From positions 135,992-199,991 of the forward strand of contig JBAZTA010000003.1 of the NCBI GenBank assembly GCA_041662125.1: 64,000 bases of DNA, written 5' to 3'. Each line of letters begins with the position of its first letter. The stretch's first letter is position 1. The notes below the pieces were generated by a model. It did no database searches, was not told the origin of the DNA, and saw only the letters and a list, made by a program, of their open reading frames with translations. Origin of the DNA: Candidatus Omnitrophota bacterium. Its GTDB lineage: Bacteria; Omnitrophota; Gorgyraeia; Gygaellales; Profunditerraquicolaceae. Below are positions 28,564-49,618 of the stretch, one piece after another. Position numbers and translations under genes: made by a program.

Positions 28564-29748
28564 TTAAAGTATAAATCTTTGCAATATGCTTTGTCCAAAA
28601 GACGCGCACCACGCGCTATCTAAAATTACCCCTTTTTTCAAGATTGTCAGGAATACTCCTATAAAAATAAAAGGAGTTAAGGGGAAAGTTTTGCTGATAC
28701 TTATTTCAGAAAGCCCCGGCTCATTGAGCCCAATTTCCTTAATATACGCAGCTTGTTCTTCTGTTAATCCGTCAGGGTAAAACTTCTCATTGACCCCCTT
28801 TATCTTGAAAATCTCGCAAATTTTTATCATGGATTCATGCGATAAGAGCATTCCTTTACGCAGGTCATCTTTCTTTATTTTCTTTACCTCGCGCGTATTG
28901 AGGAAAGATTGAATCAGAATCGAAAAAATCGTACAGGCCAAGAGAAAAAAGGTAAAATTTTGGAATAAGCCTTGTATTACACGTGGTATGTCTTTTGCCT
29001 CAAAGACAATGATCGCTAAAAACACTATATTGAGAGCTGTGGTGGCGATAATAACATTTTTCTTTTTGAACAAAACAGTTAACTTTTGGAAACCAAAACT
29101 GATGATGATGCAGATAATCCCGAACAATGATGAAAAGCGGCTTTGCGCTTTCATGAAACCGATAAGCCGTATGATATTCATGAACATGAATATACTCAAA
29201 TATCCTAATGCGATCTTAGCGTAATCTTTTTTATGAACATTAAGCAAGTTTATTCTTTCAACCGCATACGTAATGCTTGCTTTAAAATTGAGTTGTATAA
29301 GGGATATTCCTTTAAGAAAAACAAACAACTGCAGCACGAGCTTTATGAATATTTCTAGGATAATAAATAAAAAGACGATACTAAAAGCGTTAGCGAGTAA
29401 AATGAATGAAGGGAAATTAGGGATAGGATAGCTGTCGCCGTAATAGTGCAGAGGAACTAAGAATGAAAAGAGCATAAAAAGTTTGGCGTCACCTGCTGAC
29501 CAAAAACCAAAATACCAGATAAAAAATGATACGGTGCATGAAATGGCAACATTTTTTAGAAAAATTGAAACAGGGAAAATAACAGGGGCATGAAAGAATA
29601 TAATTTTGGCCGCGAGTATACAATAACAAATGATGCCGCTTAAGGCCCCGTAGATAATATATTTATTTTTAACTTTACCTATGCGCAGGTCATCAAATGA
29701 AGTGATAGCTCCCAGTATAAATAATATTGCCAAGAAGAGAAAATCCAT
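28564..29748 (-). CDS. A24-family (prepilin peptidase / TadV-CpaA-like) membrane protein with C-terminal extension
   Basis: 394 aa, polytopic. Two aspartyl-protease motifs typical of A24 peptidases are present: 'ITSFDDLRIGKVKNKY' (first Asp) and 'WSAGDAKLFMLF' (GxGDxKL, second Asp). It lacks the PilD N-terminal Cys box. A roughly 100-aa soluble C-terminal tail follows. Confidence 0.5.
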   Translation of the reverse strand: MDFLFLAILFILGAITSFDDLRIGKVKNKYIIYGALSGIICYCILAAKIIFFHAPVIFPVSIFLKNVAISCTVSFFIWYFGFWSAGDAKLFMLFSFLVPLHYYGDSYPIPNFPSFILLANAFSIVFLFIILEIFIKLVLQLFVFLKGISLIQLNFKASITYAVERINLLNVHKKDYAKIALGYLSIFMFMNIIRLIGFMKAQSRFSSLFGIICIIISFGFQKLTVLFKKKNVIIATTALNIVFLAIIVFEAKDIPRVIQGLFQNFTFFLLACTIFSILIQSFLNTREVKKIKKDDLRKGMLLSHESMIKICEIFKIKGVNEKFYPDGLTEEQAAYIKEIGLNEPGLSEISISKTFPLTPFIFIGVFLTILKKGVILDSAWCASFGQSILQRFIL

Positions 29749-29802: not shown

Positions 29803-30141
29803 TTACCATTGTCCGTGAGAGCCATGAGAGCCATGAGAGCCGTGAGAGCCGTGAGAACCGTGTGAGCCGTGAGAGCCATGTGAGCCGTGAGAGCCGTGAG
29901 AGCCGTGAGAGCCGTGAGAACCATGTGAAACGTGCCTTCCGGTGACAGGGTCATTATCCATATAGGAAGTCTGTGTATACGGTTGTGCCGCTGCCTGTTT
30001 TTGTATGAAGCTATTGACCATCCCCAATGTTAAGAGGATCCCCGCGCTTAAACGTAAAGCGTTTTTTCTGGTAATCTTAGCTTCTTCACTGTTTAAAAAC
30101 ATTTTTAAGTCTTTTTTAACTTTAGGGAAATCTTTTTTCAT
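29803..30141 (-). CDS. membrane-anchored His-Xaa-Ser tandem-repeat protein (HxsA-like)
   Basis: 112 aa. An N-terminal signal/TM segment 'LRLSAGILLTLGMVNSF' is followed by VSHG plus 12 perfect SHG repeats and ends ...GQW. It is encoded by a 9-bp DNA tandem repeat and is the only frame with a start codon and a signal peptide. The stop of the upstream gene overlaps its ATG (TGACATG). Confidence 0.6.
   Translation of the reverse strand: MKKDFPKVKKDLKMFLNSEEAKITRKNALRLSAGILLTLGMVNSFIQKQAAAQPYTQTSYMDNDPVTGRHVSHGSHGSHGSHGSHGSHGSHGSHGSHGSHGSHGSHGSHGQW
29815..29931. repeat. 9-bp tandem repeat (about 13 units of GTGAGAGCC and variants) encoding (Ser-His-Gly)n
   Basis: Direct reading: gtgagagcc / atgagagcc / gtgagaacc / gtgtgagcc units head-to-tail. 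All three plus-frames and three minus-frames give repetitive peptides. Only the minus frame (GSH) is part of a full ORF. Confidence 0.9.
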
Positions 30142-30142
30142 G

Positions 30143-30886
30143 TCAGTTAACGCCTCCTTTTATTTGCTCTTGCTCACCAGGATTGTTAGTGATTATTTCT
30201 CTTAATTTAGATTCATCGAATTCTTGGGTGAGAGGGTCATAACTGAACTGTTGATATATTTGTTTTTTTACATCTTCAAACAGGGTAATAATCTGTTCTT
30301 CGGAAAAGCCGGCTTGCTTTTTTTGTTCATAAAAGATCGGCCACGATCCAAGAGCTTGCTGCATTCTTTCTTTATACGCTTTGAGCCTTTCTTGCATCAA
30401 TTGTTCAGCGATTTCTTCTGGCTGTTGCGCCAGAGAGTTTTGCAAAGTTGAAGCGCTGGTTATTTCTTCGCATGTGGAATTGATCTTAGTTTTACAGGCG
30501 TACTTTCCTTTATTACAAATATAGCGCATAGTGATAAGCTCTTTTTTACAGTTGTCACAGGGTTCAAAGCTTGCTTTTTTATCAGCAGAGGTATAAATGA
30601 TCATTTTTAAAGAATTATCGTTTCTATCGAGCAGTTTCTTTTCTTCTTTCGACAACGTATCTACCCAGGTTGTCGAGAGGCGTTCATCGGCAATATAGCC
30701 TTCTCTTACTTCTGATAAAGGTAAACCGCAAACAGGGCATTTTGTGATCATCTTGTGGTCAATTTGGACGAGCGTGTCGGTAGGGCAGCCTTGAATTCTC
30801 GATTCAGCAGCACAGAAAGTGATATTTGTTAGGACAATACAGGCCAATACAAAACATTGATAGAGTCTAAACTGATTCTTTTGCAT
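30143..30886 (-). CDS. Cys-rich secreted protein with C-terminal Gln/Glu-rich helical region, hypothetical
   Basis: 247 aa. A signal peptide is followed by CxxC pairs 'CPTDT...CPVCG' and 'CDNCKK...CNKGKYAC...C'. It is translationally coupled to the repeat protein. Confidence 0.45.
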   Translation of the reverse strand: MQKNQFRLYQCFVLACIVLTNITFCAAESRIQGCPTDTLVQIDHKMITKCPVCGLPLSEVREGYIADERLSTTWVDTLSKEEKKLLDRNDNSLKMIIYTSADKKASFEPCDNCKKELITMRYICNKGKYACKTKINSTCEEITSASTLQNSLAQQPEEIAEQLMQERLKAYKERMQQALGSWPIFYEQKKQAGFSEEQIITLFEDVKKQIYQQFSYDPLTQEFDESKLREIITNNPGEQEQIKGGVN

Positions 30887-30900
30887 ACGTTGCCCTTTCT

Positions 30901-31113
30901 TTATTTTTCCGTCGCCGCTAAAGATAAAACATAATTTGAGAATTCATCTTTTACGAAAGGCCTGAGTTCTTTTTTTCTAATGTTATCAATCGTAACGATG
31001 ATCCGGCTTTTTTTGTTTTGCACCATAAAATCAGCAAGCCCCCGGTAATCTTTTATTGCTTTTTTGACAGAAGCCAGCGGATAAAAGTCTTCAGCAAAAG
31101 TGATTTTTAGCAT
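30901..31113 (-). CDS. small hypothetical protein (70 aa)
   Basis: No signal peptide. Its start overlaps the stop of the upstream gene by 7 nt. 'FSNYVLSL' weakly resembles the motif in the upstream neighbour. Confidence 0.35.
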   Translation of the reverse strand: MLKITFAEDFYPLASVKKAIKDYRGLADFMVQNKKSRIIVTIDNIRKKELRPFVKDEFSNYVLSLAATEK

Positions 31114-31556
31114 TTTTTTGGCTTTCGTTTTTTTGCCTGCGCAGTTTTATGTTTTTCTTCCCAGGGTATCGCTATCTTTAAAGGGTCTTCTTCCCAGTCC
31201 TGCTCAAGGCCTATTTCTTGCTGGCCTTCGAAAGTTGTTTTCTCAACAGGCGCAGAAGCCTGTGAGAAAAACAAAGCGGTTTTTATGATATGTTCCCGGA
31301 TATCTTTATTGCGCAGTGCGATATTGTAACGCAGCGTATTACTGATAAGCTCATTTTTAAAACTTTCTCGTAAATCGGCAAGTGATACATGGGAATCCTT
31401 GGGGGTCAAGCAAACATTGATATCATTGCTTTGTCCGGGAAGTTTTTCCAAGAAAGCATACGTGTCGTTTAAAAACTGACAACAGGTAGTAATAACCGCT
31501 TCTTTAGAAAAGATATCGCTTGATAATTTAAGTTCAATCGTTTTTGTTTTTTTCAT
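31107..31556 (-). CDS. hypothetical protein with 'LNDTYAFLE' motif (possible HxsD-like accessory protein)
   Basis: 149 aa, cytoplasmic. 'CCQFLNDTYAFLEKL' near the N-terminus resembles the motif I recall as the HxsD family signature (LLNDYxLRE). The C-terminus is Lys-rich. Confidence 0.4.
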   Translation of the reverse strand: MKKTKTIELKLSSDIFSKEAVITTCCQFLNDTYAFLEKLPGQSNDINVCLTPKDSHVSLADLRESFKNELISNTLRYNIALRNKDIREHIIKTALFFSQASAPVEKTTFEGQQEIGLEQDWEEDPLKIAIPWEEKHKTAQAKKRKPKKC

Positions 31557-31574: not shown

Positions 31575-32123
31575 TTAATGGCACAGCATATATCCGGATG
31601 TATCTAATAAACCTGGATTAGCGATAACAAAAGGACTAACGGGAGAACCACCTAAGGTGAACACATTGATCACATGCATGAACGCAGGGTCACACCAAGT
31701 AACCCTTGCTCCCGGGTCAATTCCTGAAAGCGGAACCACCGGGAACGGGTCATATCTAACAAATCTTGGTTGAATAAACAAAGGGAACCATAAACCTGAA
31801 CTTGTGTAATAGAATAAAGCGTGATAATTAATGTCATAGTATATTTGGCCATCTGCCGGATTTGTGGGAGGGGTTGGCCTTGGATCTAGTGATAGTACCC
31901 CATCATCAACCAAATATGCAGCACCGCTATTGGGATCGCGAGAGCGTCCTACGGTCATTCTATGTGCTTTTACCGTGTCATATAAACCGGTGAGGCTCGG
32001 ATAATACGTTGTTATTACTATTTCTTCTTGGGCTGATGCTTGAGTAATGCAAAGGATTATTAAACTTATAATAGGAATAATTGTTAAGAATATGTTTTCT
32101 TTGTTTAAGTATTTGATGAGCAT
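31575..32123 (-). CDS. secreted protein, paralog 1 of a three-member local family (unknown function)
   Basis: 182 aa. Signal peptide ...'ITQASA'. The mature N-terminus 'QEEIVITTYYPS...YD' and the motifs 'DGVLSLDPR', 'GQIYYD', 'FYY', 'WFP' and two Cys are shared with the next two genes. Confidence 0.6.
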   Translation of the reverse strand: MLIKYLNKENIFLTIIPIISLIILCITQASAQEEIVITTYYPSLTGLYDTVKAHRMTVGRSRDPNSGAAYLVDDGVLSLDPRPTPPTNPADGQIYYDINYHALFYYTSSGLWFPLFIQPRFVRYDPFPVVPLSGIDPGARVTWCDPAFMHVINVFTLGGSPVSPFVIANPGLLDTSGYMLCH

Positions 32124-32140
32124 AGGTTAAAAGTATTTTG

Positions 32141-32608
32141 TTAAATACAAATCAAAAATCCGTTTGGCGGAGGAGCGCTAAAATCTGCCCTGTTTTTATT
32201 CAAATCAAGTACATTCACTGCCGTTGCGTTTTGCAAGCCCAATGGGTTTATTGGTGCATTACAAGAAAACGTTCCTGGGCCATATGGTATCTCACGGGCA
32301 CTACCCAAAGCCGGCAGCCATATGGTTGCATTAAAAAAATAAAATGATCTGTCTATTCCATAGTAAAAGATATCTCCCTGTCTGGGGGCAAGTCCGGGAA
32401 AAGTTGCGCGAGGCCCAAAACTAAGAACACCATCTCTGGTTAGTTCAGGAGTACTATTTGTGCCAATGCCTACTTTATTTGCGATAAGCCTGTCATACGC
32501 TGCGTTCGCAGAAGGAAAATATGTTGTGATGTAAATATCTTCAGCAAAGCCGTACTGCGCAATTCCTACTATACAAAATAATAAGAGTAATGATAGTCTT
32601 TTTGTCAT
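32141..32608 (-). CDS. secreted protein, paralog 2
   Basis: 155 aa. Signal peptide ...'AQYGFA'. Mature 'EDIYITTYFPS...YD...DGVLSFGPR...GDIFYYG...FYFF...WLP...PPPNGFLICI'. Confidence 0.6.
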   Translation of the reverse strand: MTKRLSLLLLFCIVGIAQYGFAEDIYITTYFPSANAAYDRLIANKVGIGTNSTPELTRDGVLSFGPRATFPGLAPRQGDIFYYGIDRSFYFFNATIWLPALGSAREIPYGPGTFSCNAPINPLGLQNATAVNVLDLNKNRADFSAPPPNGFLICI

Positions 32609-32622
32609 TTTCTCATGAGCCT

Positions 32623-33072
32623 CTAATCACACAGTAACCATCCTCCGCCCGGTGGCGGAGCCAACCAATTTACTAACCGTCCGGTTTGATCCATGACATT
32701 AATTAAAGTCATACCATATGGGCAACCAGACCATAAGTCAGGGGTATACACTTTCATAGCAACTCCGGGATTTGCATACCACCGTGTCCCATCATTATAA
32801 AAAAACATTAACAACGCGCTATTATAATAAATACTGCCTGGAATATTCCCCGGAGGAGCTGCAACCCTGGGAGAAAAAGCAATTGTTGCATCATCTGAAT
32901 TATTATGCATAGCACTTTCGCCGACATTAAGTTTGTGTACTTTAATGGAGTCGTAACTCCCAAAAGGCGAAGGATGGTAAGTGCTGATAACAATATCTTT
33001 ATCAGTAGCAAAGCTGATCGAATAATAACATAATAAAACAGCTAAACTTATGTAAATTTTACGCATATGCAT
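32623..33072 (-). CDS. secreted protein, paralog 3 (start trimmed to internal Met preceding the signal peptide)
   Basis: The ORF-track frame runs to 33258 but overlaps the upstream rSAM gene. The probable start is 'MHMRKIYISLAVLLCYYSISFA' (ATG 33070-33072 or 33064-33066). Mature 'TDKDIVISTYHPS...YD...PGSIYYN...FFY...W...APPPGGGWLLCD'. Confidence 0.55.
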   Translation of the reverse strand: MHMRKIYISLAVLLCYYSISFATDKDIVISTYHPSPFGSYDSIKVHKLNVGESAMHNNSDDATIAFSPRVAAPPGNIPGSIYYNSALLMFFYNDGTRWYANPGVAMKVYTPDLWSGCPYGMTLINVMDQTGRLVNWLAPPPGGGWLLCD

Positions 33073-33103
33073 AGTAATTAATATATCAAATAACCGATTC
33101 TTG

Positions 33104-34057
33104 TCAATTATTTTTATGAGGCACTGTAATAGCTTTAAACTCTTTAACACCAAACTGTTTCGTATAATATTTCCAGGCCCCTTCACAATATAAATTATAC
33201 ACGCAAATTTTACAACAAGCAAATTTAATTTTTGAGTCTCTTCTCCTTCTTTTTTCAATAAAAAATGATTCTCTTCCCCGAGTGCCTATCGCTGTTTTCC
33301 TTTGTCCATCCTTGAATTCACCAACTATACCTTGAAAATTCGGGATCCCGGCTAATATGCAAAAGGGGATATCTCCCACAGTGAGATTAAGTTTCATCTT
33401 TTTCGCAAGGCCAACTGCTGCAGTAAGATGCTTTTTTATTGCAGTATAGCGAGGTACTAATAAATCAAAATTACGCCGTCCTCTTCCTTCCGGATTAATA
33501 AAGTTTAGCCGAAAATCCCTTAATTGGAACTTTTGGGAGAAAAAGCGGATCATTTTCGAAAGATCACGGTAATTTAATTTATTAATAACTATATTGAGCA
33601 ATATATTATCTTTAATGATCCCTTTTTTTCTGAGTATTGCTAAATAACGCAGCCCTTGTGTTTTTTCAGAAAAGCCTCCTTTTACCGCGGTCAGAAAATC
33701 TTCGGTTGCGGCTTTATGGCTGTGAATAGAAATATAAAAGCGTGACGCTCCGGCCTGTATGATTTTTTTGAGGAATACCGCGTCAGAGTAACGCCTGCCG
33801 TTGCTGACCAAATAAACACCCTGGAATCCGAGCTTTCTGGCAAAGAGAATCGATTCTACGAGATGGGGGTATAGTGTCGGCTCACCTCCCAGAAAACCGA
33901 TCATACGGTAGCCCTGTTTGTAAAAATCCAGGAGCTCTTTTTTTACTTCTGTGACAGGGATGAATTTCTGCTCTTCGCGCGGGACGTCACTCATGCAAAA
34001 TTTGCAGCGGTTATTACAGAGAAACCCCAGGTTAATTTCAGCTTTTTTATCTTCCAT
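33104..34057 (-). CDS. radical SAM enzyme, roughly 300-aa 'type B' (N-terminal CxxxCxxC, C-terminal CxxC...C cluster)
   Basis: 317 aa. 'CNNRCKFC', 'LGGEPTL', and C-terminal 'CCKICVYNLYCEG' are present. Confidence 0.8.
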   Translation of the reverse strand: MEDKKAEINLGFLCNNRCKFCMSDVPREEQKFIPVTEVKKELLDFYKQGYRMIGFLGGEPTLYPHLVESILFARKLGFQGVYLVSNGRRYSDAVFLKKIIQAGASRFYISIHSHKAATEDFLTAVKGGFSEKTQGLRYLAILRKKGIIKDNILLNIVINKLNYRDLSKMIRFFSQKFQLRDFRLNFINPEGRGRRNFDLLVPRYTAIKKHLTAAVGLAKKMKLNLTVGDIPFCILAGIPNFQGIVGEFKDGQRKTAIGTRGRESFFIEKRRRRDSKIKFACCKICVYNLYCEGAWKYYTKQFGVKEFKAITVPHKNN

Positions 34058-34994
34058 GAAGTATTTTGGCCGTGATCGCTTCTTTACTCACAAATACAGG
34101 ATGAAGCTCTTTTGAGGAATAAAATTTGTCCATTTGATATAACCCGGGGCATATGCTGTCAAGGAAACAGGTTTTGCAGCAGTCTGTTTTGTCATATCCC
34201 CATTTTTTCTTCCAATCGTTTTCATAATGAAAACCGCGGTTGTCCAGGAAAAATGTTACGCGGTTCTCTTTTTTTACCAGTTTTCTGGTCTCATTGAGGA
34301 CGTGTTCAAACTCGGGAAGCGCGCAGAGCGGCAAGCGCTCTACTCTGAAAGTTTTATGGTGTTTTTCCAGGAATACCAGCGCACGGTGCAATGATAATTC
34401 AATTTCTGACAAGCGGGGTATCGTATCCGGATTTTCCTTGGCCCTGTCCATGTAGGGGTCAAGGTTATTCCAAACAAAATGGCGCACAAAGGAGAAGTTT
34501 TTTACGATCCAGGATACATTTTCATACAAATGGCCGGCATTATAGTGGTTGATCACGATATTCATATCAACTCTGATCTTTGGAAGTTTCTCTAAATTCC
34601 TTAAAGCTTTAATAATATTGTCCAGGGCGTCTTTGTTTTGAGTTAAAAACGATTGGATCTCTTTTTTATACGAATAAAAAGAAAGATGCAACTGCTGTAA
34701 TCCCGCTTTTTTCAACTCCAGCAGGTAAGAATAATCGGCTAACTTCTGCCCATTTGTGATGATACGGCAGGGCATGTTTTTTACCCGGCAATAGCTGATT
34801 AAATCACCTAAGAACGGAGAAAGTGTTGGTTCTCCCCCGGTAAATATGATCCCATCATAGGATTTCTTAATATAGAGATCGATTAATTTCTTGCCTTGTT
34901 CAAGGGTGAGTGTTTTTTTTGTCGGAGGATTCGAACAAAAACGGCATTGCTGGTTACATTCCCTGGTGAGTTGGATATACGCTAATGACGCCAC
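34047..34994 (-). CDS. radical SAM enzyme, type B paralog
   Basis: 315 aa. 'CNQQCRFC', 'FTGGEPTL', and C-terminal 'CCKTCFLDSICPG' are present. Confidence 0.8.
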   Translation of the reverse strand: MASLAYIQLTRECNQQCRFCSNPPTKKTLTLEQGKKLIDLYIKKSYDGIIFTGGEPTLSPFLGDLISYCRVKNMPCRIITNGQKLADYSYLLELKKAGLQQLHLSFYSYKKEIQSFLTQNKDALDNIIKALRNLEKLPKIRVDMNIVINHYNAGHLYENVSWIVKNFSFVRHFVWNNLDPYMDRAKENPDTIPRLSEIELSLHRALVFLEKHHKTFRVERLPLCALPEFEHVLNETRKLVKKENRVTFFLDNRGFHYENDWKKKWGYDKTDCCKTCFLDSICPGLYQMDKFYSSKELHPVFVSKEAITAKILHGR

Positions 34995-35037: not shown

Positions 35038-36231
35038 TCATATGTTTTTTAAGATCTTAAAGCCTTTTTCCCGTATCAGCCTGATAGGGGCTCCGTTGCA
35101 GTTTTTATGCGCTTTACAGAGATCGCACCTCAAGCTTTTCAAGAAAAACCTTTCATTGATAAAAAAATCCAAAAACGCGTTAATATCAATTGTGCCCTGC
35201 GTAAGAAATCGTTTGAACCTGCGCCGGTGCGTTTGAATGCAAACACCTGTTTCTTTTGACACTATTTGTTTATCTTTCTTTAGTTTGACCAGGTCGTTAC
35301 AAAAATCTTCGATAAAACAATAGCGGCATTGAGCTCCAAAGCACGGCATAAGTTCGCCTCGCTTGATAAACCGAGAAAACAGCGACATTCTTCCCCTGAT
35401 CTCATCTTTTAATTTTTCCGGGTGCTGGATCAATTCTTCAAATCCTTCCAAGAACCGGGCAGGGAACCGATTGGTCCAGATATAAATATCAGGGAACTCA
35501 TATTGCAGCTGAAAGGCTTTTTTGAGATACGGTGCGGCTGCAGGTATTGTATACAGGACTTTCTCCTTATTCTTCCAGGCAGAGCCAAACGGCGTCACTT
35601 GGAGCAGATCAAATTCGGTTATATTGCGAGAAATAAAAAATCTCATAATATCCTCCAGATGCCGATAATTGATCTTATTGATAACGATATCAATATTTAT
35701 AATCAGGCGGTTGGACTCCAATGCGTTTGTCAGTCCCGCCATTGCCTGCGCAAATGAACCTGTAACGCCTGATTGCTTCTCATAAAGCGTTTTCGTATGG
35801 CCGTGCATCGAAAAAGTTATTTCACTGACTCCCGCAGCGACTGCTTTATTGAGAAAAGACCGGTAGTAAAACATGCGGCCGTTTGTCACGACTTGGACCT
35901 GCGCATAGCCTAAGGTTTTTGCAAGTTCCACAATACGCAGGAAATGGGGATGCAGGGTAGGTTCTCCTCCTGAAAGGATAAGTTTAACAGAACCCTCAGA
36001 GATTCCCTGTTCCATTTCCTTTTTTAAGGCAAGAATGCTTCGAGAAGTTCCATTGTGATGAACGCTATCGAGGCAGAAAACGCAGTTGTTATTACAAAAA
36101 TTCGTCAATCGCAGCCAGAATTTTTTTTTCTGCGCGGCCTCTTTACGTTGCGTTATTCGAGTTTTTAACTGGTTCAAGCTCTTTATCTCCATAGAGTGAG
36201 TAATAGTGCTCAAATATCCCGCCGCAAACAC
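35038..36231 (-). CDS. radical SAM enzyme with extended Cys-rich C-terminus
   Basis: 397 aa. 'CNNNCVFC', 'SGGEPTL', and C-terminal clusters 'CFGAQCRYC...C' and 'CDLCKAHKNC' are present. An alternative start at ATG 36190-36192 would reduce the 89-nt overlap with the upstream gene. Confidence 0.75.
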   Translation of the reverse strand: MFAAGYLSTITHSMEIKSLNQLKTRITQRKEAAQKKKFWLRLTNFCNNNCVFCLDSVHHNGTSRSILALKKEMEQGISEGSVKLILSGGEPTLHPHFLRIVELAKTLGYAQVQVVTNGRMFYYRSFLNKAVAAGVSEITFSMHGHTKTLYEKQSGVTGSFAQAMAGLTNALESNRLIINIDIVINKINYRHLEDIMRFFISRNITEFDLLQVTPFGSAWKNKEKVLYTIPAAAPYLKKAFQLQYEFPDIYIWTNRFPARFLEGFEELIQHPEKLKDEIRGRMSLFSRFIKRGELMPCFGAQCRYCFIEDFCNDLVKLKKDKQIVSKETGVCIQTHRRRFKRFLTQGTIDINAFLDFFINERFFLKSLRCDLCKAHKNCNGAPIRLIREKGFKILKNI

Positions 36232-37066
36232 TCTTGTACAAACAACAACGGCATACGGCGGTCTTTATTCTTTTTCTTGTTGGACGCATGCATCTTTCTT
36301 CTTTTACATAGTTTTTTTTACCCGCGGCAAGTTCAAGCGTAAGGCGTTCATCCCAATAGAAATCGTTTGAATAACAGGCGAAATCACCTAAAATACAAGC
36401 CGGCATGCCAAAAAACCTGATAATACTTTTATGCGCATTAGCCTTTTTAATCAAAACCGGTATTTTTGTTTTGATTTCAGAGAGCCTGACGGCTAATGCT
36501 TGGTAATCGCGTAACCCTCTTCCTTCCGGAGCAAGATTCGAAAAAAGCATGTGTTTGATCTTTTTCTTCAAGAGAAATGTTTCTATTTTTTCGAGGGAAT
36601 TAAAATTAAGCCTGCTGATTACTGTGTTGCTAAAGATCCTGATCGGATAATCAGACAACCATGCTAATGCCCGGGATAGATTGCTAAAACTCCCCTGGGT
36701 TTTTACGATCATATTATGCTCTTTCGCCGAATGCCCATGGATGGAAAAACATACTTCATCAAGGTATGCGGCTACCTGTGAGCAAAACTTTTTTTCTGAA
36801 AATCTACCCCCATTAGTGCCCACGCGGATCGAATAACCCATTTTCCTGGTTTCCTGTGCCAGCTCCGTAAAAAACGGGACAAGGGTCGCTTCTCCTCCGG
36901 TAAAATGCACGCTCGTAAAGCCTTTCTTTTTCTTTTCTTTTAACAACGTAAGAATCGGATCAAGGGCAAGCGGTTGTCTGTGAAACCGGCCGATAGCATC
37001 GGAAGAACTGCAAAACACACATTTCTGTGAGCAGGTATATGAGATATGAAAGTCAATATGTTCCAT
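36143..37066 (-). CDS. radical SAM enzyme, type B paralog
   Basis: 307 aa. 'CSQKCVFC', 'FTGGEATL', and C-terminal 'CRCCLYKSVCGG' are present. Confidence 0.8.
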   Translation of the reverse strand: MEHIDFHISYTCSQKCVFCSSSDAIGRFHRQPLALDPILTLLKEKKKKGFTSVHFTGGEATLVPFFTELAQETRKMGYSIRVGTNGGRFSEKKFCSQVAAYLDEVCFSIHGHSAKEHNMIVKTQGSFSNLSRALAWLSDYPIRIFSNTVISRLNFNSLEKIETFLLKKKIKHMLFSNLAPEGRGLRDYQALAVRLSEIKTKIPVLIKKANAHKSIIRFFGMPACILGDFACYSNDFYWDERLTLELAAGKKNYVKEERCMRPTRKRIKTAVCRCCLYKSVCGGIFEHYYSLYGDKELEPVKNSNNAT

Positions 37067-37093: not shown

Positions 37094-39025
37094 TCATACA
37101 CGGCATTTCGCTTTAATCCGGCAAATCTCATCCGCCCCATAAAGAGTGCGATAGCCGTTAATGATTCCCAAACACTTTTGTTTGAATAAACATTCCTTGC
37201 ATTCTTTTAGTTTGATAAATCTTTGGTCAAGCAGGTAAATCTTCATTGAGTCGGAGATTTCGTCAGCGCTTTTAATCAGGTCTTTTTGAACTTTTTGTAC
37301 AACACAAAGGGGAAAAGCGACTAAACAATTTATTCCCTGTAAAAGGCTTTTTATATCTGCGTATGAAGGCATGAGGTTTTGCAGAGGCATATTTGCTGTT
37401 TTCGGCCTTACCGGCAACGCGATAAAGGGTTTATTCATCTCTCCCTTGACAAATTCTTCTAAGGCTAAAAGATGCCCTATATTCTGTTTTAATACATTGG
37501 TATGGATATACGTGCGCGCGCCGTATTCTGCCGCGTTTTTTATCCCCCGTAAGACTTTCCGGTAACTGCCCCTGGTTCCAACAATAGTATCATGAACGCG
37601 CGGGTCATTGGAAAAAAGCGGAAGTGAGAATGAACTGGCCCCCCGCTGAATGAGGCAACGCGTAAACGCCTTATCTGCCAAGCATTCCCCGGAGGTCATG
37701 ATCTCTATAGTTTCAAAGCCGTTGGTTTTTGCAAGTTCGACTACTTCAAATATATCGTCATATAAAAGAGGATCGTTGCCGATAACGCAGAGCTTTTTCA
37801 CGCGCAGGACTCTGTTTTCTTTAAGCTTTATTTTGATCCTTAACAGGTCAGCCTGCCCTTCCCCTTGTTTTTTGGTACAAAAGATGCAATCGTTCGCGCA
37901 GGGCCCATCGATGTATAAAAATAAAGAATTGATGCTTAATTGTTTGCTCTGCTCTTTTTGAAGCTTGAAAGCACCTCGTATGAACGGGATGAGCGCAGGA
38001 TGTTCATTCGAGCGTAAGGCTTCCTGAGGAGCTGCGTTAAAGAAATCATCGAGTGTAATCCCTAAGTCAATATTATTATCTAAGATGTCACGTTGCTTCA
38101 AAGAGCAGGCTTTATTAAATATTTTATACAAGCTGTATTTGGTTTTAAAGAACGAATCAATGTGTTGTTCCTGAAAGACATCTCCCAGGAAATAATATTT
38201 GCGTAACTCAGGGAATGTTTTCTCCATAAAAATAGCGGCGTCAAAATACATCTTGCCGTCTGTATCTACTAATATTTCCTGGCTCAACATCGTAGGTTCG
38301 CAGTGGTTGGTAAAATTCATCAGAAAAGAACTGCTTGCGGGCAGAGCGCGTATTTTGGCAAGTTCATTTATGAGCCGGTCTTTTTCATCCTTGAGCCAGC
38401 GTATGCCGGTCTGATAACAGAGTTGGATCCTCTCCACCGCATGTGTTCGCAGGAAACATATACTCTTTAATAATTCAGTTGTGGTATCCGGGGCCACGAC
38501 CATATTGACAAAAAAAGGGATACCGGATTTCTTCAGGCATTCTAAATTAGCCAGGAGCGGCCCATAATAATCCTGTTTATGCAAAGCAAACCGGTGCCGC
38601 AAAGTCAAGCGCCGGCCTCCGTCTAAAGAAAACATGATCTCGACCGGATATTTTTTAAGGAAGCTGATTTTTTTACTATCAAGGAGCAGGCCGTTCGTGG
38701 TTATCATAAAGGTGATCTTTTTTTTTCGTTTGAACGCCTGTTTTTGCGCGTATACAATTGCATCTTTGATGAAATCCCATTGTAATAACGGTTCCCCTCC
38801 CCAAAACCTAAGCCTGCATTCCGCTTCGTGAGTGCTTAAAAGTAGCGCTACCGCTTTGCGTAAGACAGGCCTGGTCATTGATGAGCTTGTGCGTCGTATT
38901 TCGCAATAATCACAGTTTAATTGGCAACGATAGGTACACATGATCATCAGGCTGTTAACGTACGTATGGTGTTGGGGTTCTAAAGAATCTCTCGTTATAT
39001 CAATAGTCAGGGTTTTTTTCTGCAT
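37094..39025 (-). CDS. double radical SAM fusion protein (type A N-domain plus type B C-domain)
   Basis: 643 aa. N-domain 'CTYRCQLNCDYC' and 'WGGEPLL' is a paralog of the 39970..41187 ORF. C-domain 'CANDCIFC' with terminal 'CKECLFKQKCLG' is a paralog of the 300-aa type B enzymes. Confidence 0.8.
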   Translation of the reverse strand: MQKKTLTIDITRDSLEPQHHTYVNSLMIMCTYRCQLNCDYCEIRRTSSSMTRPVLRKAVALLLSTHEAECRLRFWGGEPLLQWDFIKDAIVYAQKQAFKRKKKITFMITTNGLLLDSKKISFLKKYPVEIMFSLDGGRRLTLRHRFALHKQDYYGPLLANLECLKKSGIPFFVNMVVAPDTTTELLKSICFLRTHAVERIQLCYQTGIRWLKDEKDRLINELAKIRALPASSSFLMNFTNHCEPTMLSQEILVDTDGKMYFDAAIFMEKTFPELRKYYFLGDVFQEQHIDSFFKTKYSLYKIFNKACSLKQRDILDNNIDLGITLDDFFNAAPQEALRSNEHPALIPFIRGAFKLQKEQSKQLSINSLFLYIDGPCANDCIFCTKKQGEGQADLLRIKIKLKENRVLRVKKLCVIGNDPLLYDDIFEVVELAKTNGFETIEIMTSGECLADKAFTRCLIQRGASSFSLPLFSNDPRVHDTIVGTRGSYRKVLRGIKNAAEYGARTYIHTNVLKQNIGHLLALEEFVKGEMNKPFIALPVRPKTANMPLQNLMPSYADIKSLLQGINCLVAFPLCVVQKVQKDLIKSADEISDSMKIYLLDQRFIKLKECKECLFKQKCLGIINGYRTLYGADEICRIKAKCRV

Positions 39026-39100: not shown

Positions 39101-39979
39101 TTAATCTGTGAAATAACGTTTTTGCAGCCCCTTGCAGGAGTGCGCAAAACGGCAATCGACGCAAAATGGCCTTTTACTGAATAGCCTGTTGAATTTAGAC
39201 ATATAGGCTGATTTCTTTGTTTTTGCTTGGATCAAAGTATCTACTTCATGATTTTCTCTTATACTGGCCGGGTGAAAACCTTTAAGGTCGTTTTGCCTGC
39301 GGTTGGCTGATTCAGGATACAGTAAGCAGGGCGCAAAACCGCGAAAGACTATGCGAGCCTGGCGCAGGCCAAGAGTGCGTATACGGGTCAAATAATCTTT
39401 GATTTCCGGCAAACTCAAATGGCTCGCCTTGCCCTTTGGTATGATTTCTTCGGCGATTATAAAATCCCTGATTGATGCTTTATAGAGTGAAGTAATTGTT
39501 TTTTCCAAATCGCGATAATTAAAAGAGCTCAATACAGTGTTGATCCGTATCGAAATATCGAACTTTTTACGCAATGCGATAAGGTTGCGGATACCCGCTT
39601 TTGTTTCCCGGCAGCTTCCTGTTCTTTGAGTTATTCGATCATGTGTTATATCCCGTACGCTATACAAGGAAACCGCGAATTCATTGACACCAGCGATCAA
39701 TAAATCGCGGGTGAAAGCGGGGTTTTTCAATAATCGCGCGTTCGTGATGATTCCTATTGCACGAAAACCCCTTATTTTGCAGTGTTTAACTATTCGTATC
39801 AGCCCGCGCAACATCGTTACTTCCCCGCCGGTAAGGGTGATCGTCTGGCTTGTTTCTCGCGTCTTATTGATACTATGGTAAATTTGCTTAAGGGAGTTGC
39901 AACTGATAATGGCATGGAACTCATGCCGGGGGCAAAACAAACAATCATTATTGCACTTCAGGCTTAAGGTTATATCCAT
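39101..39979 (-). CDS. radical SAM enzyme, type B paralog
   Basis: 292 aa. 'CNNDCLFC', 'TGGEVT', and C-terminal 'CVDCRFAHSCKG' are present. Confidence 0.8.
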   Translation of the reverse strand: MDITLSLKCNNDCLFCPRHEFHAIISCNSLKQIYHSINKTRETSQTITLTGGEVTMLRGLIRIVKHCKIRGFRAIGIITNARLLKNPAFTRDLLIAGVNEFAVSLYSVRDITHDRITQRTGSCRETKAGIRNLIALRKKFDISIRINTVLSSFNYRDLEKTITSLYKASIRDFIIAEEIIPKGKASHLSLPEIKDYLTRIRTLGLRQARIVFRGFAPCLLYPESANRRQNDLKGFHPASIRENHEVDTLIQAKTKKSAYMSKFNRLFSKRPFCVDCRFAHSCKGLQKRYFTD

Positions 39980-46743: not shown

Positions 46744-48237
46744 TTATTGTGAACCGGCTGGTAATGTGTAATTTGCCCATTTATAAAACAATTTCTTTAC
46801 CTTTGTATTCCTTAATTTATCAAACAAAAAGTCAAGTATCCCTTTATTGATTATGCAGCGGGGATTTGAACTTATATGAGAAAAGATATTGCCTTCATAC
46901 GACCAGTTAAATATAGGGCAAACTCCGCAGTAGGGTTTATACGCGCATAAATCACAGCTGGTGTTATCCAGGCAGGAAGCCATACTTAAGACTTTTACCG
47001 TAGAATGGTTCACGATTTCTTTGTATTTATTTTTTGATACATTCCCTATGCAGAATATTTCATCGCCGACCATTCGCCCTTCATCGCAGGTATAGACCTT
47101 TCCGTCATAGTTATAGAGCAGTTGGCCTATCCCGGCACCGCAGGGAGAACGCAACTCAAGAAAATTCGGGTCATAGTCGGTAATGATCTTGGCAAGGAAT
47201 ATCTTAGCGGTGTTCTCATGAAAATGGCTTTTGGGGTGTTTTAACGCGTAGGATATGACACGGTTAAGTGCCCGCGTATAGAATTTCAAGTATTCTTGCG
47301 GGGTATAGCCGATATCTTCCCACATGTTTTTCGCGATACCCAGGGGAGTCATCGGGCGCAAAAAAATAAATTCAAGGCCCCTTGTAATATATTCATTGAC
47401 GATTGCTTCAGGGCATTTCAAAGAATCTTTGCTTACGGTAAGAAGAGCCCCGGGCTTGAATTTATTATCAAGTTTTGATTTGTAAACTTTTTGGGCTTTT
47501 TTGAGCCAGCGAACCGCTTGACGATGATTATTCCCTTTGCTCCAGATACGGTTCTTATTATGGATATGTTCCGGGCCATCAAGAGAAGTACAAACAGTAA
47601 CTGAGTTTGCTACGAGAAATTTAAGTTTTGCCTCATCCATTAAAGAAAAGTTAGAAACAAGCCGTAGCTCAAGATTCTTCTTTTCCACCTTGTTCTTGGT
47701 TTTACTGTATTCAATAATGAATTTAACGGTTTGCCAATTAAGCAGCGGTTCGCCTCCCTGAAACTCAAGAGCAATTGTTTTCGAAGGAGACAAAAAGATC
47801 ATATCGACGATTTTTTTGGCGGTGGCGATGTCCAGGTCAAAGCCTTTTTCTGATTCTGCTCGGGACGAGCTTTGGCAATAAATACATTTTTGATTACAGC
47901 GCAGCGTGACAACGATGATATGCAGAGACGGGCCCTGCCATAAGAATAAATTCTTTTTCTGGTATTTTAACACAATATCCGCAGTATTGATCTTATCCCG
48001 GATCAATCCTTGTGTCTTTAATATTTCAAAGATCGGGCCATGCTGAGGCAACGTTCCTTCCAGAAAACTCGTAAAATTCTTTTCGGAGAGTATCACGTAT
48101 TCTCCGACATCATTGGTGAGCAGATAATCGGATGCGCCCTGTTTTTTAAATCTAAAAAATCCGACTTTCTCCCAATCAACTTTTTTTATTATAGATTGAT
48201 TCATGTTCGCTCCTGTATCCAATGCTCCTTTACTCAA
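46744..48237 (-). CDS. radical SAM/SPASM-domain enzyme (anSME/HxsB-like maturase) with an N-terminal extension of about 95 aa
   Basis: 497 aa. 'LRCNQKCIYC', 'QGGEPLL', and the C-terminal SPASM pattern 'CGAG...C' and 'CDLCAYKPYCGVC' are present. Confidence 0.75.
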   Translation of the reverse strand: MSKGALDTGANMNQSIIKKVDWEKVGFFRFKKQGASDYLLTNDVGEYVILSEKNFTSFLEGTLPQHGPIFEILKTQGLIRDKINTADIVLKYQKKNLFLWQGPSLHIIVVTLRCNQKCIYCQSSSRAESEKGFDLDIATAKKIVDMIFLSPSKTIALEFQGGEPLLNWQTVKFIIEYSKTKNKVEKKNLELRLVSNFSLMDEAKLKFLVANSVTVCTSLDGPEHIHNKNRIWSKGNNHRQAVRWLKKAQKVYKSKLDNKFKPGALLTVSKDSLKCPEAIVNEYITRGLEFIFLRPMTPLGIAKNMWEDIGYTPQEYLKFYTRALNRVISYALKHPKSHFHENTAKIFLAKIITDYDPNFLELRSPCGAGIGQLLYNYDGKVYTCDEGRMVGDEIFCIGNVSKNKYKEIVNHSTVKVLSMASCLDNTSCDLCAYKPYCGVCPIFNWSYEGNIFSHISSNPRCIINKGILDFLFDKLRNTKVKKLFYKWANYTLPAGSQ

Positions 48238-49604: not shown

Positions 49605-49618
49605 GTGAGTAATATTTG

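What the first reader, a model, noticed from the sequence alone, without database searches (positions are those of the whole stretch)
31575..33072. Three tandem paralogous small secreted proteins immediately downstream of the rSAM array: candidate substrates or products
Three consecutive ORFs encode 150-180-aa signal-peptide proteins. They share a motif series by eye, with a conserved pair of Cys near the C-terminus:
- E[ED]I[VY]I[TS]TY[YFH]PS near the mature N-terminus;
- YD;
- GVLS[LF]xPR;
- G[QDS]I[YF]YY;
- F[YF][YF];
- W[FLY]P;
- a C-terminal (A)PPPxGxxL[IL]C.

They are diverged from one another, so this is an old duplication and not a recent one.

By analogy, anSME-type rSAM/SPASM enzymes modify Sec substrates before export. 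So rSAM modification of these proteins in the cytoplasm prior to secretion is conceivable. They could equally be structural or adhesin components unrelated to the rSAMs.

I do not recognise the family.
Basis: seen in the sequence. Interest (0 to 1): 0.7.

Follow-up and report, generated by a model that had tools for sequence, protein, structure and literature searches.

The report
Exported partner proteins of HXS cluster
The three small secreted paralogs are real and belong to an undescribed, Omnitrophota-specific family of fibre-like exported proteins; their subfamily always sits in one operon with the His-Xaa-Ser (HXS) radical-SAM system, whose expected substrate is a different, overlooked gene 1.4 kb downstream.

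Summary
Three minus-strand genes (31575-32123, 32141-32608, 32623-33072) encode Sec-type secreted paralogs that are 32-35% identical, each with exactly two Cys in the mature part.

The rSAM array is an expanded His-Xaa-Ser (HXS) system, with HxsB, about ten HxsC-like rSAMs, HxsD and HxsD_rel.

The trio belongs to a large Omnitrophota-only family with no Pfam or NCBIfam model. Members have a signal peptide, then a conserved mature N-terminus (TITTYYPSPYGSY...GxxYYN...W), then variable C-terminal domains. Some of those are phage-type Peptidase_S74 or tail-collar domains. Most members lie far from any rSAM gene.

The trio's own subfamily was found in 13 of 13 clusters in the same slot: last rSAM, then this gene, then hxsD. 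It sits behind a conserved sigma-70-like promoter and is co-oriented with hxsD, hxsA4 and an A24-like membrane peptidase.

Cys counts are even in every HXS-linked member listed, which points to disulfides.

Best reading: these are dedicated exported, probably oligomeric accessory proteins of an HxsA4-type system. That they are also rSAM substrates is not excluded. No fold could be assigned.

The parts
32623..33072 (-). P3, 149 aa. First of the three secreted paralogs. Signal peptide is residues 1-22 (33007-33072). Mature N-terminus TDKDIVISTYHPSPFGSYD; C-terminus ...APPPGGGWLLCD.
   Evidence: 59% identical to its positional ortholog in L082
32141..32608 (-). P2, 155 aa. Second paralog. Signal peptide is residues 1-22 (32543-32608). 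Identical to NCBI WDL87_06010, annotated 'hypothetical protein', Candidatus Omnitrophota MAG.
31575..32123 (-). P1, 182 aa. Third paralog. Signal peptide is residues 1-31 (32031-32123). Its stop lies 18 nt before the hxsD-like start. Corresponds to WDL87_06005.
   Evidence: 62% identical to the L082 ortholog
33080..33107 (-). Sigma-70-like promoter TTGACA-N16-TATATT, preceded by TG, matching 11 of 12 positions. The -10 hexamer ends 8 nt before the P3 ATG, so the P3 mRNA may be leaderless. The -35 hexamer overlaps the stop codon of the last rSAM gene.
   Evidence: The same consensus lies within 200 nt upstream of the family gene in 8 of 9 assessable related clusters, against a background density of 0.16 per kb.
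31107..31556 (-). HxsD-like protein, 149 aa, with C-terminal DPLxIAIPWEEKH motif.
   Evidence: TIGR03976 at 41 bits, below the cutoff of 50; precomputed hit to PF27806 HxsD
30901..31113 (-). HxsD_rel, 70 aa.
   Evidence: NF038315 at 56.9 bits, above the cutoff of 41
30143..30886 (-). 247-aa exported protein whose N-terminal half is Cys-rich. It is a conserved member of this cluster type.
   Evidence: homologs occupy the same slot in L082-L085 and L087, and genes of similar size occupy it
29803..30141 (-). HxsA4, the His-Xaa-Ser repeat protein and expected rSAM substrate. It has a K/R-rich leader, a hydrophobic segment, then ...GRHVSHG(SHG)n...SHGQW. Pfam mislabels it 'Collagen'.
   Evidence: sequence; NF038313 at 87.2 bits, above the cutoff of 55
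28564..29748 (-). 394-aa polytopic membrane protein resembling an A24 (prepilin-type) aspartyl peptidase, with FDDLRIGKVKN and SAGDAKLF motifs.
   Evidence: Pfam Peptidase_A24 at E = 0.0059 and 17.5 bits, below the cutoff of 26.5; a homolog in L164 carries a precomputed weak PF01478 hit; conserved in L005, L084, L085, L087
33104..46660 (-). Array of ten rSAM genes: 33104-34057, 34047-34994, 35038-36231, 36143-37066, 37094-39025 (two rSAM domains), 39101-39979, 39970-41187, 41171-43948 (B12-binding plus rSAM), 43972-44886, 44873-46660 (two rSAM stretches). Best hits are HxsC, HxsC4, HxsB or PapB-like, all below the curated cutoffs.
46744..48237 (-). HxsB, the His-Xaa-Ser system rSAM/SPASM maturase.
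   Evidence: TIGR03978 at 475.8 bits, above the cutoff of 370

Best explanation
P3, P2 and P1 are dedicated, Sec-exported accessory proteins of an expanded HxsA4-type His-Xaa-Ser (HXS) radical-SAM system in an Omnitrophota bacterium.

**Shown**
- They are the promoter-proximal genes of a tightly packed, co-oriented gene run: P3, P2, P1, hxsD, hxsD_rel, a 247-aa exported protein, hxsA4, an A24-like peptidase. The run lies directly after the rSAM array.
- Each protein has a cleavable-looking signal peptide and an N-terminal module shared with a large Omnitrophota-only family of exported proteins.
- Each also has a C-terminal beta-rich domain with one Cys pair. In this sampling that domain occurs only inside such clusters.

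**Inferred**
- The proteins fold outside the cytoplasm and form a disulfide.
- They probably oligomerise like the family's fibre-type members. With three paralogs kept apart since before speciation, they may form a heterotrimer.
- They act together with the matured His-rich HxsA4 peptide in the envelope. For example, they could position or anchor it, the role that a peptidoglycan-binding domain fused to HxsA plays in E. coli.
- On this reading they are not the primary substrate of the rSAM enzymes; HxsA4 is.
For: **The system**
- HxsB scores above its cutoff, as do HxsD_rel and HxsA4.
- An HxsD-like protein is present.
- The rSAM genes score best against HxsC and HxsC4.

**Linkage**
- All 13 clusters containing a protein with the trio's C-terminal domain have the order rSAM(s), this gene, HxsD, 70-aa HxsD_rel, a protein of about 230 aa, HxsA4, an A24-like protein.
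- An HMM of that C-terminal domain hits none of the 96 family ORFs in genome loci chosen by the N-terminal motif alone.
- Gaps between the family gene and hxsD are 33 nt or less, or the genes overlap, in every case I measured.
- A metagenome scan anchored on HxsD, not on the family, found a family member directly upstream of hxsD in 15 loci. One further locus has a partial copy, and two have a member one gene further upstream.
- Two family members chosen only for an 'SG.YLCC' C-terminus, with their context unknown at the time, both turned out to sit directly upstream of hxsD-hxsB.

**Operon**
- A TTGAC[AT]-N16-18-TAnnnT promoter consensus lies within 200 nt upstream of the family gene in 8 of 9 assessable clusters. 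The background density is 0.16 per kb, and it is often the only match in the locus.
- The window's copy matches 11 of 12 positions.

**Exported and structural**
- In about 100 small relatives the conserved motif begins at roughly residue 17-54, that is, straight after a signal peptide.
- The number of mature Cys is even (2, 4 or 6) in all 22 HXS-linked members listed.
- Extra Cys appear in pairs inside insertions.
- The same N-terminal module heads proteins with Peptidase_S74 chaperone domains or a tail-collar domain.
- AF2 leaves the N-module at low confidence in a monomer and gives a beta-rich C-terminal half at pLDDT about 75-84.

**Not the main substrate**
- The trio has no HxS repeats.
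- HxsA4 co-occurs with the family gene in every sufficiently long cluster.
- Many HxsA4-type clusters lack any such gene.

**Each copy is maintained**
- Positional orthologs are 53-62% identical, against 24-35% between the paralogs.
Against: - There is no direct evidence of any physical or functional interaction with HxsA4. The anchoring or positioning role is an analogy to the peptidoglycan-binding domain of E. coli HxsA (PMC13128918).
- The antiphage function has been shown only for the four-gene proteobacterial system, not for HxsA4-type clusters.
- 'Fibre-like' and 'trimeric' therefore rest on shared modules, not on a fold.
- Ten or more rSAM genes is a lot for one short repeat peptide, which leaves room for extra substrates.
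- All HXS-linked exported proteins, including some without the family's N-module, end in a similar [STND]-G-x-aromatic/aliphatic-aliphatic-Cys(-Cys) strand. That strand could be a recognition or modification site.
- Signal peptides were judged by eye only.
Confidence: 0.5

Rival explanations
1. The three proteins are themselves substrates of some of the ten or so HxsC/HxsB-like rSAM enzymes. They would be modified in the cytoplasm, for instance at the conserved C-terminal ...[SN]G[YFW]xxC strand or in the Tyr/Pro-rich N-terminus, and then exported by Sec.
For: - They sit strictly between the rSAM array and hxsD.
- The system has a precedent: HxsA has a signal peptide and is modified before export (PMC13128918).
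- There are far more rSAM domains than the two used by the canonical system.
- HXS-linked exported proteins with different N-terminal architectures share a similar C-terminal Cys-containing strand.
- Being promoter-proximal is typical of precursors, which are made in excess over their enzymes.
Against: - The trio has no HxS repeats and no leader-like region other than an ordinary signal peptide.
- Cys numbers are always even, and extra Cys are gained in pairs, which fits disulfides.
- The Tyr/Pro-rich N-terminal motif is shared by many family members that have no rSAM gene within 10 kb, so it is not an rSAM recognition site.
- Clusters with one family gene and clusters with three have similarly large rSAM arrays.
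- HxsA4-type clusters with two HxsD-like proteins exist without any family gene.
Confidence: 0.25
2. The three proteins are cell-surface fibre or adhesin proteins with a function of their own, such as attachment to prey or host cells or masking of a phage receptor. They would merely share a promoter and locus with the HXS genes, with no mechanistic coupling.
For: - The wider family is large, has several copies per genome, and is mostly unlinked to rSAM genes.
- Members carry phage-type receptor-binding or fibre modules, namely Peptidase_S74 and Collar.
- A family member directly follows mtaB in several genomes, with or without Hxs genes. This suggests an ancestral synteny block next to which Hxs genes sit.
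Against: - The type-1 C-terminal domain was found only inside Hxs clusters, in 13 of 13 cases, and in none of the 96 family ORFs from genome loci chosen by the N-terminal motif.
- The pairing of family gene and hxsD survives rearrangements that separate it from mtaB and from hxsB (L005, L085, L087, L094, L097, L116).
- The predictive test from C-terminal motif to context succeeded in 2 of 2 cases.
Confidence: 0.15
3. They are pilin-like or lipoprotein substrates of the A24-like peptidase encoded in the same operon.
For: - An A24-like membrane protein is a conserved member of the cluster.
- One related cluster is followed by an N_methyl pilin gene.
- All three signal peptides contain a Cys.
Against: - The N-termini are Sec type I, with a long hydrophobic region followed by AXA. 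They lack the G|F/M-xxxE prepilin motif and have no N_methyl hit.
- The residue before the signal-peptide Cys is L, F or L, so there is no lipobox. The Cys position is also not conserved in relatives.
- HxsA4, not the trio, has the charged leader followed by G and a hydrophobic stretch that looks like a class III signal.
Confidence: 0.03

Closest known systems
HXS (His-Xaa-Ser) antiphage system HxsABCD (TIGR03976-03979; Li et al., Nat Commun 2026, PMC13128918)
   Same: - The window has a genuine HxsB, HxsC-like rSAMs, an HxsD-like protein and a His-Xaa-Ser repeat protein with an N-terminal export signal, all co-oriented in one cluster.
- The effector or precursor is an exported protein matured by cytoplasmic rSAM enzymes.
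   Different: - The canonical system has four genes in the order D-B-C-A. [quoted passage not shown]
- Here there are ten extra rSAM genes, a second HxsD-like protein, and a minimal HxsA4 consisting of a leader plus (SHG)n.
- Here there are also an A24-like peptidase, a Cys-rich exported protein, and the three secreted paralogs. The paper describes no counterpart to the paralogs.
- Function has not been tested for this type.
NCBIfam 'type 4' Hxs models: HxsA4 (NF038313), HxsC4 (NF038332), HxsD_rel (NF038315)
   Same: - HxsA4 and HxsD_rel in the window pass the curated cutoffs.
- Several of the rSAMs have HxsC4 as their best hit.
   Different: - No rSAM here reaches the HxsC4 cutoff (best score 179.7 against 500).
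- No NCBIfam model covers the three paralogs or any relative tested.
Cellular 'tail fiber domain-containing proteins' with the Peptidase_S74 intramolecular chaperone (PF13884), and phage tail-fibre hairpin repeats (DUF2793/DUF5907-type)
   Same: - The N-terminal module of the trio also heads Omnitrophota proteins that end in Peptidase_S74 or tail-collar domains.
- The central P..G.IYY....FYY...W hairpin recurs as a repeat in very long proteins, and one long hit tested carries a DUF5907 repeat.
- It gives weak hits to tail-fibre PHROGs and to BFVD models.
   Different: - The trio has no S74, collar or other Pfam domain.
- It carries a Sec signal peptide.
- It has no relatives in 2.9 million IMG/VR contigs or in GenBank phages.
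- It has a small two-Cys C-terminal domain of its own.
anSME-type maturation of Sec/Tat-exported sulfatases
   Same: An rSAM/SPASM enzyme acts in the cytoplasm on a protein that carries a signal peptide.
   Different: - The (C/S)-x-(P/A)-x-R sulfatase motif is absent. The 'xPR' of P1-P3 has the wrong spacing and is not conserved in the subfamily.
- There is no sulfatase domain.
- The rSAMs here score best against Hxs families, not against anSME.

Membership tests
HXS / His-Xaa-Ser rSAM system (the gene cluster as a whole) | HxsB rSAM/SPASM maturase (TIGR03978) | tested here: met
   46744-48237 scores 475.8 bits against a cutoff of 370
HXS / His-Xaa-Ser rSAM system (the gene cluster as a whole) | HxsC rSAM maturase (TIGR03977, or HxsC4 NF038332) | tested here: inconclusive
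   HxsC or HxsC4 is the best hit for most of the array. The best scores are 136 bits (cutoff 267.9) and 179.7 bits (cutoff 500), so all are below the curated cutoffs.
HXS / His-Xaa-Ser rSAM system (the gene cluster as a whole) | HxsD small protein (TIGR03976 / PF27806), or HxsD_rel (NF038315) | tested here: met
   HxsD_rel scores 56.9 bits against a cutoff of 41. The 149-aa protein scores 41 bits against a cutoff of 50 for TIGR03976, but has a precomputed PF27806 hit.
HXS / His-Xaa-Ser rSAM system (the gene cluster as a whole) | A His-Xaa-Ser repeat protein (HxsA family) encoded in the cluster | tested here: met
   29803-30141 contains (SHG)n and scores 87.2 bits on NF038313 HxsA4, against a cutoff of 55
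HXS / His-Xaa-Ser rSAM system (the gene cluster as a whole) | Antiphage activity by blocking DNA entry | not testable with these tools
   Shown only for the E. coli four-gene system (PMC13128918)
HxsA-type substrate (applied to the three paralogs) | Tandem His-Xaa-Ser repeats | tested here: not met
   P1-P3 contain no HxS repeats (sequences) and give no hit to any HxsA model
RiPP precursor peptide (applied to the three paralogs) | A short leader-core peptide without its own folded domain, encoded next to its maturase | tested here: not met
   The proteins are 149-182 aa with a Sec-type signal peptide and a predicted beta-rich domain. Only the adjacency criterion is met.
Omnitrophota 'TITTYYPSPYGSY' exported protein family (undescribed; defined here) | A signal peptide followed directly by the [IL]T[IL]TTYYP[SA]P.G.Y module and the G..YYN.....F.Y..G..W hairpin | tested here: met
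   An HMM built from seven other members hits P1-P3 at E = 1e-18 to 3e-21. There were 396 hits in the exhaustive search. Of 229 confirmed genome loci, the best 80 are all Omnitrophota or MAGs labelled 'uncultured Planctomycetales/Planctomycetia'.
Peptidase_S74 tail-fibre-like proteins | A C-terminal intramolecular chaperone domain (PF13884) | tested here: not met
   P1-P3 give no Pfam hit at E up to 0.1. The domain is present in other proteins that carry the same N-module.
Type IV pilin / prepilin | An N_methyl class III signal (G|F/M-xxxE) cleaved by an A24 peptidase | tested here: not met
   No N_methyl hit. The N-termini are Sec type I by inspection.
anSME substrates (sulfatases) | The (C/S)-x-(P/A)-x-R motif within a sulfatase domain | tested here: not met
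   The motif spacing is wrong and the motif is not conserved in the subfamily. There is no sulfatase domain.

The most novel reading that the evidence does not exclude
The three paralogs assemble into a disulfide-locked heterotrimeric fibre. This fibre would either be modified itself by members of the tenfold rSAM array before Sec export, or would carry the rSAM-matured His-rich HxsA4 peptide on the cell envelope. Either way it would be a new class of rSAM-dependent envelope structure in ultra-small Omnitrophota, used as a barrier against phage or in contact with host or prey cells. HXS-type systems in general would then need a separately encoded, lineage-specific exported partner wherever HxsA lacks its own anchoring domain.
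Probability: 0.2. Interest if true: 0.75.

Novelty: new variant of a known kind. Interest (0 to 1): 0.55.

Why it matters
HXS was shown only in 2026 to be an antiphage system in which rSAM enzymes mature an exported effector, and it was reported as almost exclusively proteobacterial.

In the variant, the repeat peptide is minimal and the operon begins with dedicated exported proteins from an undescribed family. The finding:
- gives concrete candidates for how the effector is positioned outside the cytoplasm;
- offers a clean test case for whether rSAM enzymes modify folded Sec-exported proteins;
- provides a first functional handle on a large, unannotated family of Omnitrophota surface proteins.

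Tried and rejected
- **Family libraries.** Pfam, NCBIfam and PHROGs scans of P1-P3 gave no family. The only hit was a weak one to an unknown-function PHROG, through the central hairpin.
- **Word-indexed protein search.** Searching with P2 alone found only P2 itself. The alignment-based searches returned few hits. The family became visible only in the exhaustive HMMER search.
- **A24-like protein against solved structures.** No match by sequence.
- **First genome scan.** It failed because the alignment had no stretch conserved enough to search with. I repeated it with a consensus N-module alignment.
- **Viral origin.** No relatives in IMG/VR or GenBank phages, so a prophage or phage-tail origin for these genes was rejected.
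- **Lipoprotein and prepilin readings.** Both were rejected on the signal-peptide features.
- **Sulfatase-type motif.** Rejected.
- **The N-terminal Tyr/Pro motif as an rSAM recognition site.** Rejected, because most carriers of that motif have no rSAM gene within 10 kb.
- **Literature.** Searches found no description of this family or of Hxs clusters in Omnitrophota.
Full report
**Observation.**

The three ORFs are on the minus strand at the stated coordinates:
- P1: 31575-32123, 182 aa.
- P2: 32141-32608, 155 aa.
- P3: 32623-33072, 149 aa.

They are 32-35% identical pairwise, with BLASTP E = 2e-14 to 3e-18. Each begins with a Sec-type signal peptide ending in an AXA-like site; I read this by eye. 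Each mature protein has exactly two Cys, one penultimate and one 31-38 residues upstream. P2 is identical to a 'hypothetical protein' from a Candidatus Omnitrophota MAG on a 395,841-bp contig.

**What the rSAM array is.**

All genes from 48237 down to 28564 are on the minus strand.
- 46744-48237 is a genuine HxsB (TIGR03978, 475.8 bits against a cutoff of 370).
- The ten rSAM genes from 46660 down to 33104 have HxsC, HxsC4, HxsB or PapB-like best hits, all below the curated cutoffs.
- Downstream of the trio lie an HxsD-like protein (31107-31556; TIGR03976 at 41 bits against a cutoff of 50, plus a precomputed PF27806 hit) and HxsD_rel (30901-31113; NF038315 at 56.9 bits against a cutoff of 41).
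- The 112-aa ORF at 29803-30141, which Pfam calls 'Collagen', reads ...GRHVSHG(SHG)n...SHGQW. It is HxsA4 (NF038313, 87.2 bits against a cutoff of 55).

The array is therefore an expanded His-Xaa-Ser (HXS) system, and its catalogued substrate type is encoded 1.4 kb downstream of the trio.

The canonical four-gene HXS system was recently shown to be antiphage. HxsB, HxsC and HxsD mature HxsA, which carries a signal peptide. Maturation involves N-terminal processing and a +8 Da modification in an HxS motif. HxsA then blocks phage DNA entry from the periplasm (PMC13128918). That paper reports the gene order D-B-C-A and a distribution that is 99.7% Pseudomonadota.

**What the three proteins are.**

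No Pfam, NCBIfam or informative PHROG family matches them. An exhaustive HMMER search with the three mature sequences gave 396 hits at E of 1e-3 or better. The hits are of two kinds.

The first kind is about 100 small proteins. In these the match begins right after a signal peptide, at a very conserved mature N-terminus: E-[ES]-[IL]-T-[IL]-T-T-Y-Y-P-[SA]-P-x-G-x-Y. A hairpin of the form G..YYN.....F.Y..G..W follows, and then variable C-termini.

The second kind is very long proteins that match only through repeats of the hairpin. One long hit tested carries a DUF5907 repeat.

A genome scan for [IL]TITTYYPS gave 229 confirmed loci. The best 80 are all Omnitrophota, or MAGs labelled 'uncultured Planctomycetales/Planctomycetia'.

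Members carrying this N-module end in several kinds of domain:
- Peptidase_S74 chaperone domains (L065, L081, L040, P0157).
- A phage tail-collar domain (P0020).
- Small Cys-rich domains.

No relatives exist in IMG/VR or GenBank phages. The family is therefore cellular, exported, and fibre-like by its module content.

Two AF2 models reached pLDDT 65.8 and 64.7. The N-module stayed below 50, and the C-terminal half was beta-rich at about 75-84. Neither model gave a significant fold match.

**Linkage to the rSAM system.**

*Broad family.* In the 80 genome loci chosen by the N-terminal motif, only L005 and L053 have an Hxs cluster next to the family gene. L030 has a single rSAM gene nearby. The family as a whole is not rSAM-linked.

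*The trio's own subfamily.* This subfamily has the same C-terminal domain: ...C.P.GTHV..V...[SNG]G[YFW]xxC[HIND] at the C-terminus. I could place it in 13 distinct clusters, and all have the same order. The order is rSAM(s), this gene, HxsD, a 70-aa HxsD_rel, a protein of about 230 aa, HxsA4, and an A24-like protein of about 400 aa. The 13 clusters are:
- the window;
- the contig carrying P0003;
- L082/L083, L084, L085 and L087;
- the contigs carrying P0163, P0166, P0014, P0012, P0010, P0009 and P0027.

An HMM of that C-terminal domain hits none of the 96 family ORFs in the genome loci chosen by the N-terminal motif.

*Reverse test.* I ran a metagenome scan anchored on the Omnitrophota-type HxsD, not on the family. 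It returned 80 loci, typically arranged as HxsD, HxsD_rel, HxsB, HxsA with 5 to 149 HxS repeats, then further rSAMs.
- In 15 loci a family member lies directly upstream of hxsD, with a gap of 33 nt or less or an overlap.
- One more locus has a partial copy, and two have a member one gene further upstream.
- These members have other C-terminal types but end in a similar [STND]-G-x-Φ-Φ-C-C strand.
- A few upstream proteins that lack the N-module share that ending (L103, L104, L143/L144).
- About 20 loci have a different membrane-anchored protein in this slot.
- Others have a housekeeping gene upstream, so the system can exist without such a partner.

*Predictive test.* I picked P0048 and P0029 from the context-free hit list solely for an 'SG.YLCC' C-terminus. 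Both lie directly upstream of hxsD-hxsB.

*Not explained by mtaB synteny.* mtaB often precedes the family gene, with or without Hxs genes. The pairing of family gene and hxsD nevertheless persists where mtaB is not adjacent (L005, L085, L087, L094, L097, L116).

**Operon structure.**

The window has a promoter-like site matching 11 of 12 positions: TTGACA-N16-TATATT with an upstream TG, at 33107..33080. It overlaps the stop codon of the last rSAM gene and ends 8 nt before the P3 ATG.

The same consensus, TTGAC[AT]-N16-18-TAnnnT, lies within 200 nt upstream of the family gene in 8 of 9 assessable related clusters. Its density on that strand is 0.16 per kb, and it is often the only match in the locus. 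In the ninth cluster (L087) a match lies just upstream of the first hxsD, at the rSAM boundary (position 9915; HxsD ORF 9995-10414).

The trio is therefore promoter-proximal in a transcription unit with hxsD, hxsD_rel, the 247-aa exported protein, hxsA4 and the A24-like gene. This unit is separate from the rSAM array.

**History of the triplication.**

L082 carries P3-, P2- and P1-like genes in the same order. They are 59, 53 and 62% identical to their window counterparts. The paralogs themselves are 24-35% identical. The contig carrying P0003 also has three genes in this slot. Other lineages have one copy. The duplication is old and each copy has been kept.

**Mechanism.**

*Shown.*
- The proteins have signal-peptide-like N-termini and are co-oriented and tightly packed behind a conserved promoter with hxsD and hxsA4.
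- The subfamily's association with the cluster was strict in this sampling.
- The mature parts of all 22 HXS-linked members listed have an even number of Cys (2, 4 or 6). Extra Cys are gained in pairs inside insertions.
- The N-module also heads proteins that carry Peptidase_S74 domains.

*Inferred.*
- The proteins fold in the envelope with disulfides.
- They probably oligomerise; three maintained paralogs might form a heterotrimer.
- They act with the matured HxsA4 peptide, for example by positioning it. E. coli HxsA does this through its own peptidoglycan-binding domain, and HxsA4 has no such domain.

I put the accessory reading at about 0.5. The rival that they are themselves rSAM substrates is at about 0.25. 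Supporting that rival are the large number of rSAMs, the shared C-terminal strand and the promoter-proximal position. Against it are the even Cys counts, the absence of HxS repeats, the lack of any relation between the number of family genes and the number of rSAMs, and the existence of Hxs clusters without the gene. A functionally independent surface protein sharing the operon is at about 0.15. Pilin or lipoprotein readings are at about 0.03.

**Comparison with known systems, and novelty.**

The cluster is an HXS system by HxsB, HxsD_rel and HxsA4. The HxsC criterion is inconclusive at the curated cutoffs.

The trio is not an HxsA, not a typical RiPP precursor, not an S74 fibre, not a pilin and not an anSME substrate. 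Each of these was tested and not met.

It belongs to an undescribed Omnitrophota family. Within that family, it belongs to a subfamily found here only in HxsA4-type clusters. I found no paper describing this.

I rate it a new variant of a known kind: a known rSAM system type with a previously unnoticed, dedicated exported component.

Noticed in passing
window 29803-30141 (-); also L005 15568-15930, L053 3777-4085: HxsA4 proteins have a conserved K/R-rich leader (..FL[LN]SEE[GA]K..), then a Gly and a hydrophobic stretch, which resembles a class III (prepilin-like) signal. The same operon encodes an A24-like peptidase. This suggests that a dedicated membrane protease carries out the N-terminal processing of HxsA4.
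   Followed up: partly
window 28564-29748 (-): A 394-aa polytopic membrane protein with FDDLRIGKVKN and SAGDAKLF motifs gives a weak Peptidase_A24 hit (E = 0.0059). It is conserved at the end of HxsA4-type clusters (L005, L084, L085, L087, L164), and no curated family covers it.
   Followed up: partly
window 33072-33107 (-): The promoter's -10 hexamer ends 8 nt before the P3 ATG, and no Shine-Dalgarno sequence is visible, so P3 may be translated from a leaderless mRNA. Related clusters have 30-100-nt leaders containing GGAGG-like sites instead.
   Followed up: partly
window 48342-49715 (-); L022, L026, L066, L053, L089, L092, L102, L105, L118: mtaB (tRNA methylthiotransferase) lies directly upstream of a member of the TITTYYPSP family in many Omnitrophota genomes, with or without Hxs genes downstream. 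In the window mtaB directly precedes hxsB. The reason for this recurrent neighbourhood is unknown.
   Followed up: partly
L099 5164-6684; L136 12243-14054; L109, L143, L157: Some metagenomic HxsA-like proteins carry dozens of His-Xaa-Ser repeats, and one carries at least 149 before it runs off the contig end. This is far beyond the five repeats of E. coli HxsA.
   Followed up: no
window 30143-30886 (-): A 247-aa exported protein has several CxxC-like pairs in its N-terminal half and is conserved between HxsD_rel and HxsA4 in this cluster type. Other Cys-rich exported proteins sit between HxsB and HxsA in L005 and L053. It could be another substrate or partner.
   Followed up: no
contig of P0163, upstream of its rSAM array: Four nitrogenase-component-like genes (PF00148) and a NifH-like ATPase lie directly upstream of the HxsC-like rSAM genes in one related cluster.
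   Followed up: no
L112, L121, L124-L127, L133, L140-L142, L145, L147-L149: In about 20 HxsD-anchored metagenome loci the gene upstream of hxsD encodes a different small membrane-anchored family (MNKKIF..TM..DG.F.K..YI.P...ALIVR). This suggests that lineage-specific exported partners are a general feature of these clusters.
   Followed up: no
L005 10796-12043: A transposase-like gene pair sits between two family members, just upstream of the Hxs cluster.
   Followed up: no
L168 2839-3321: One related cluster has an extra 160-aa protein with an Lcl_C (PF07603) domain and a 107-aa ORF between the last rSAM and the family gene.
   Followed up: no
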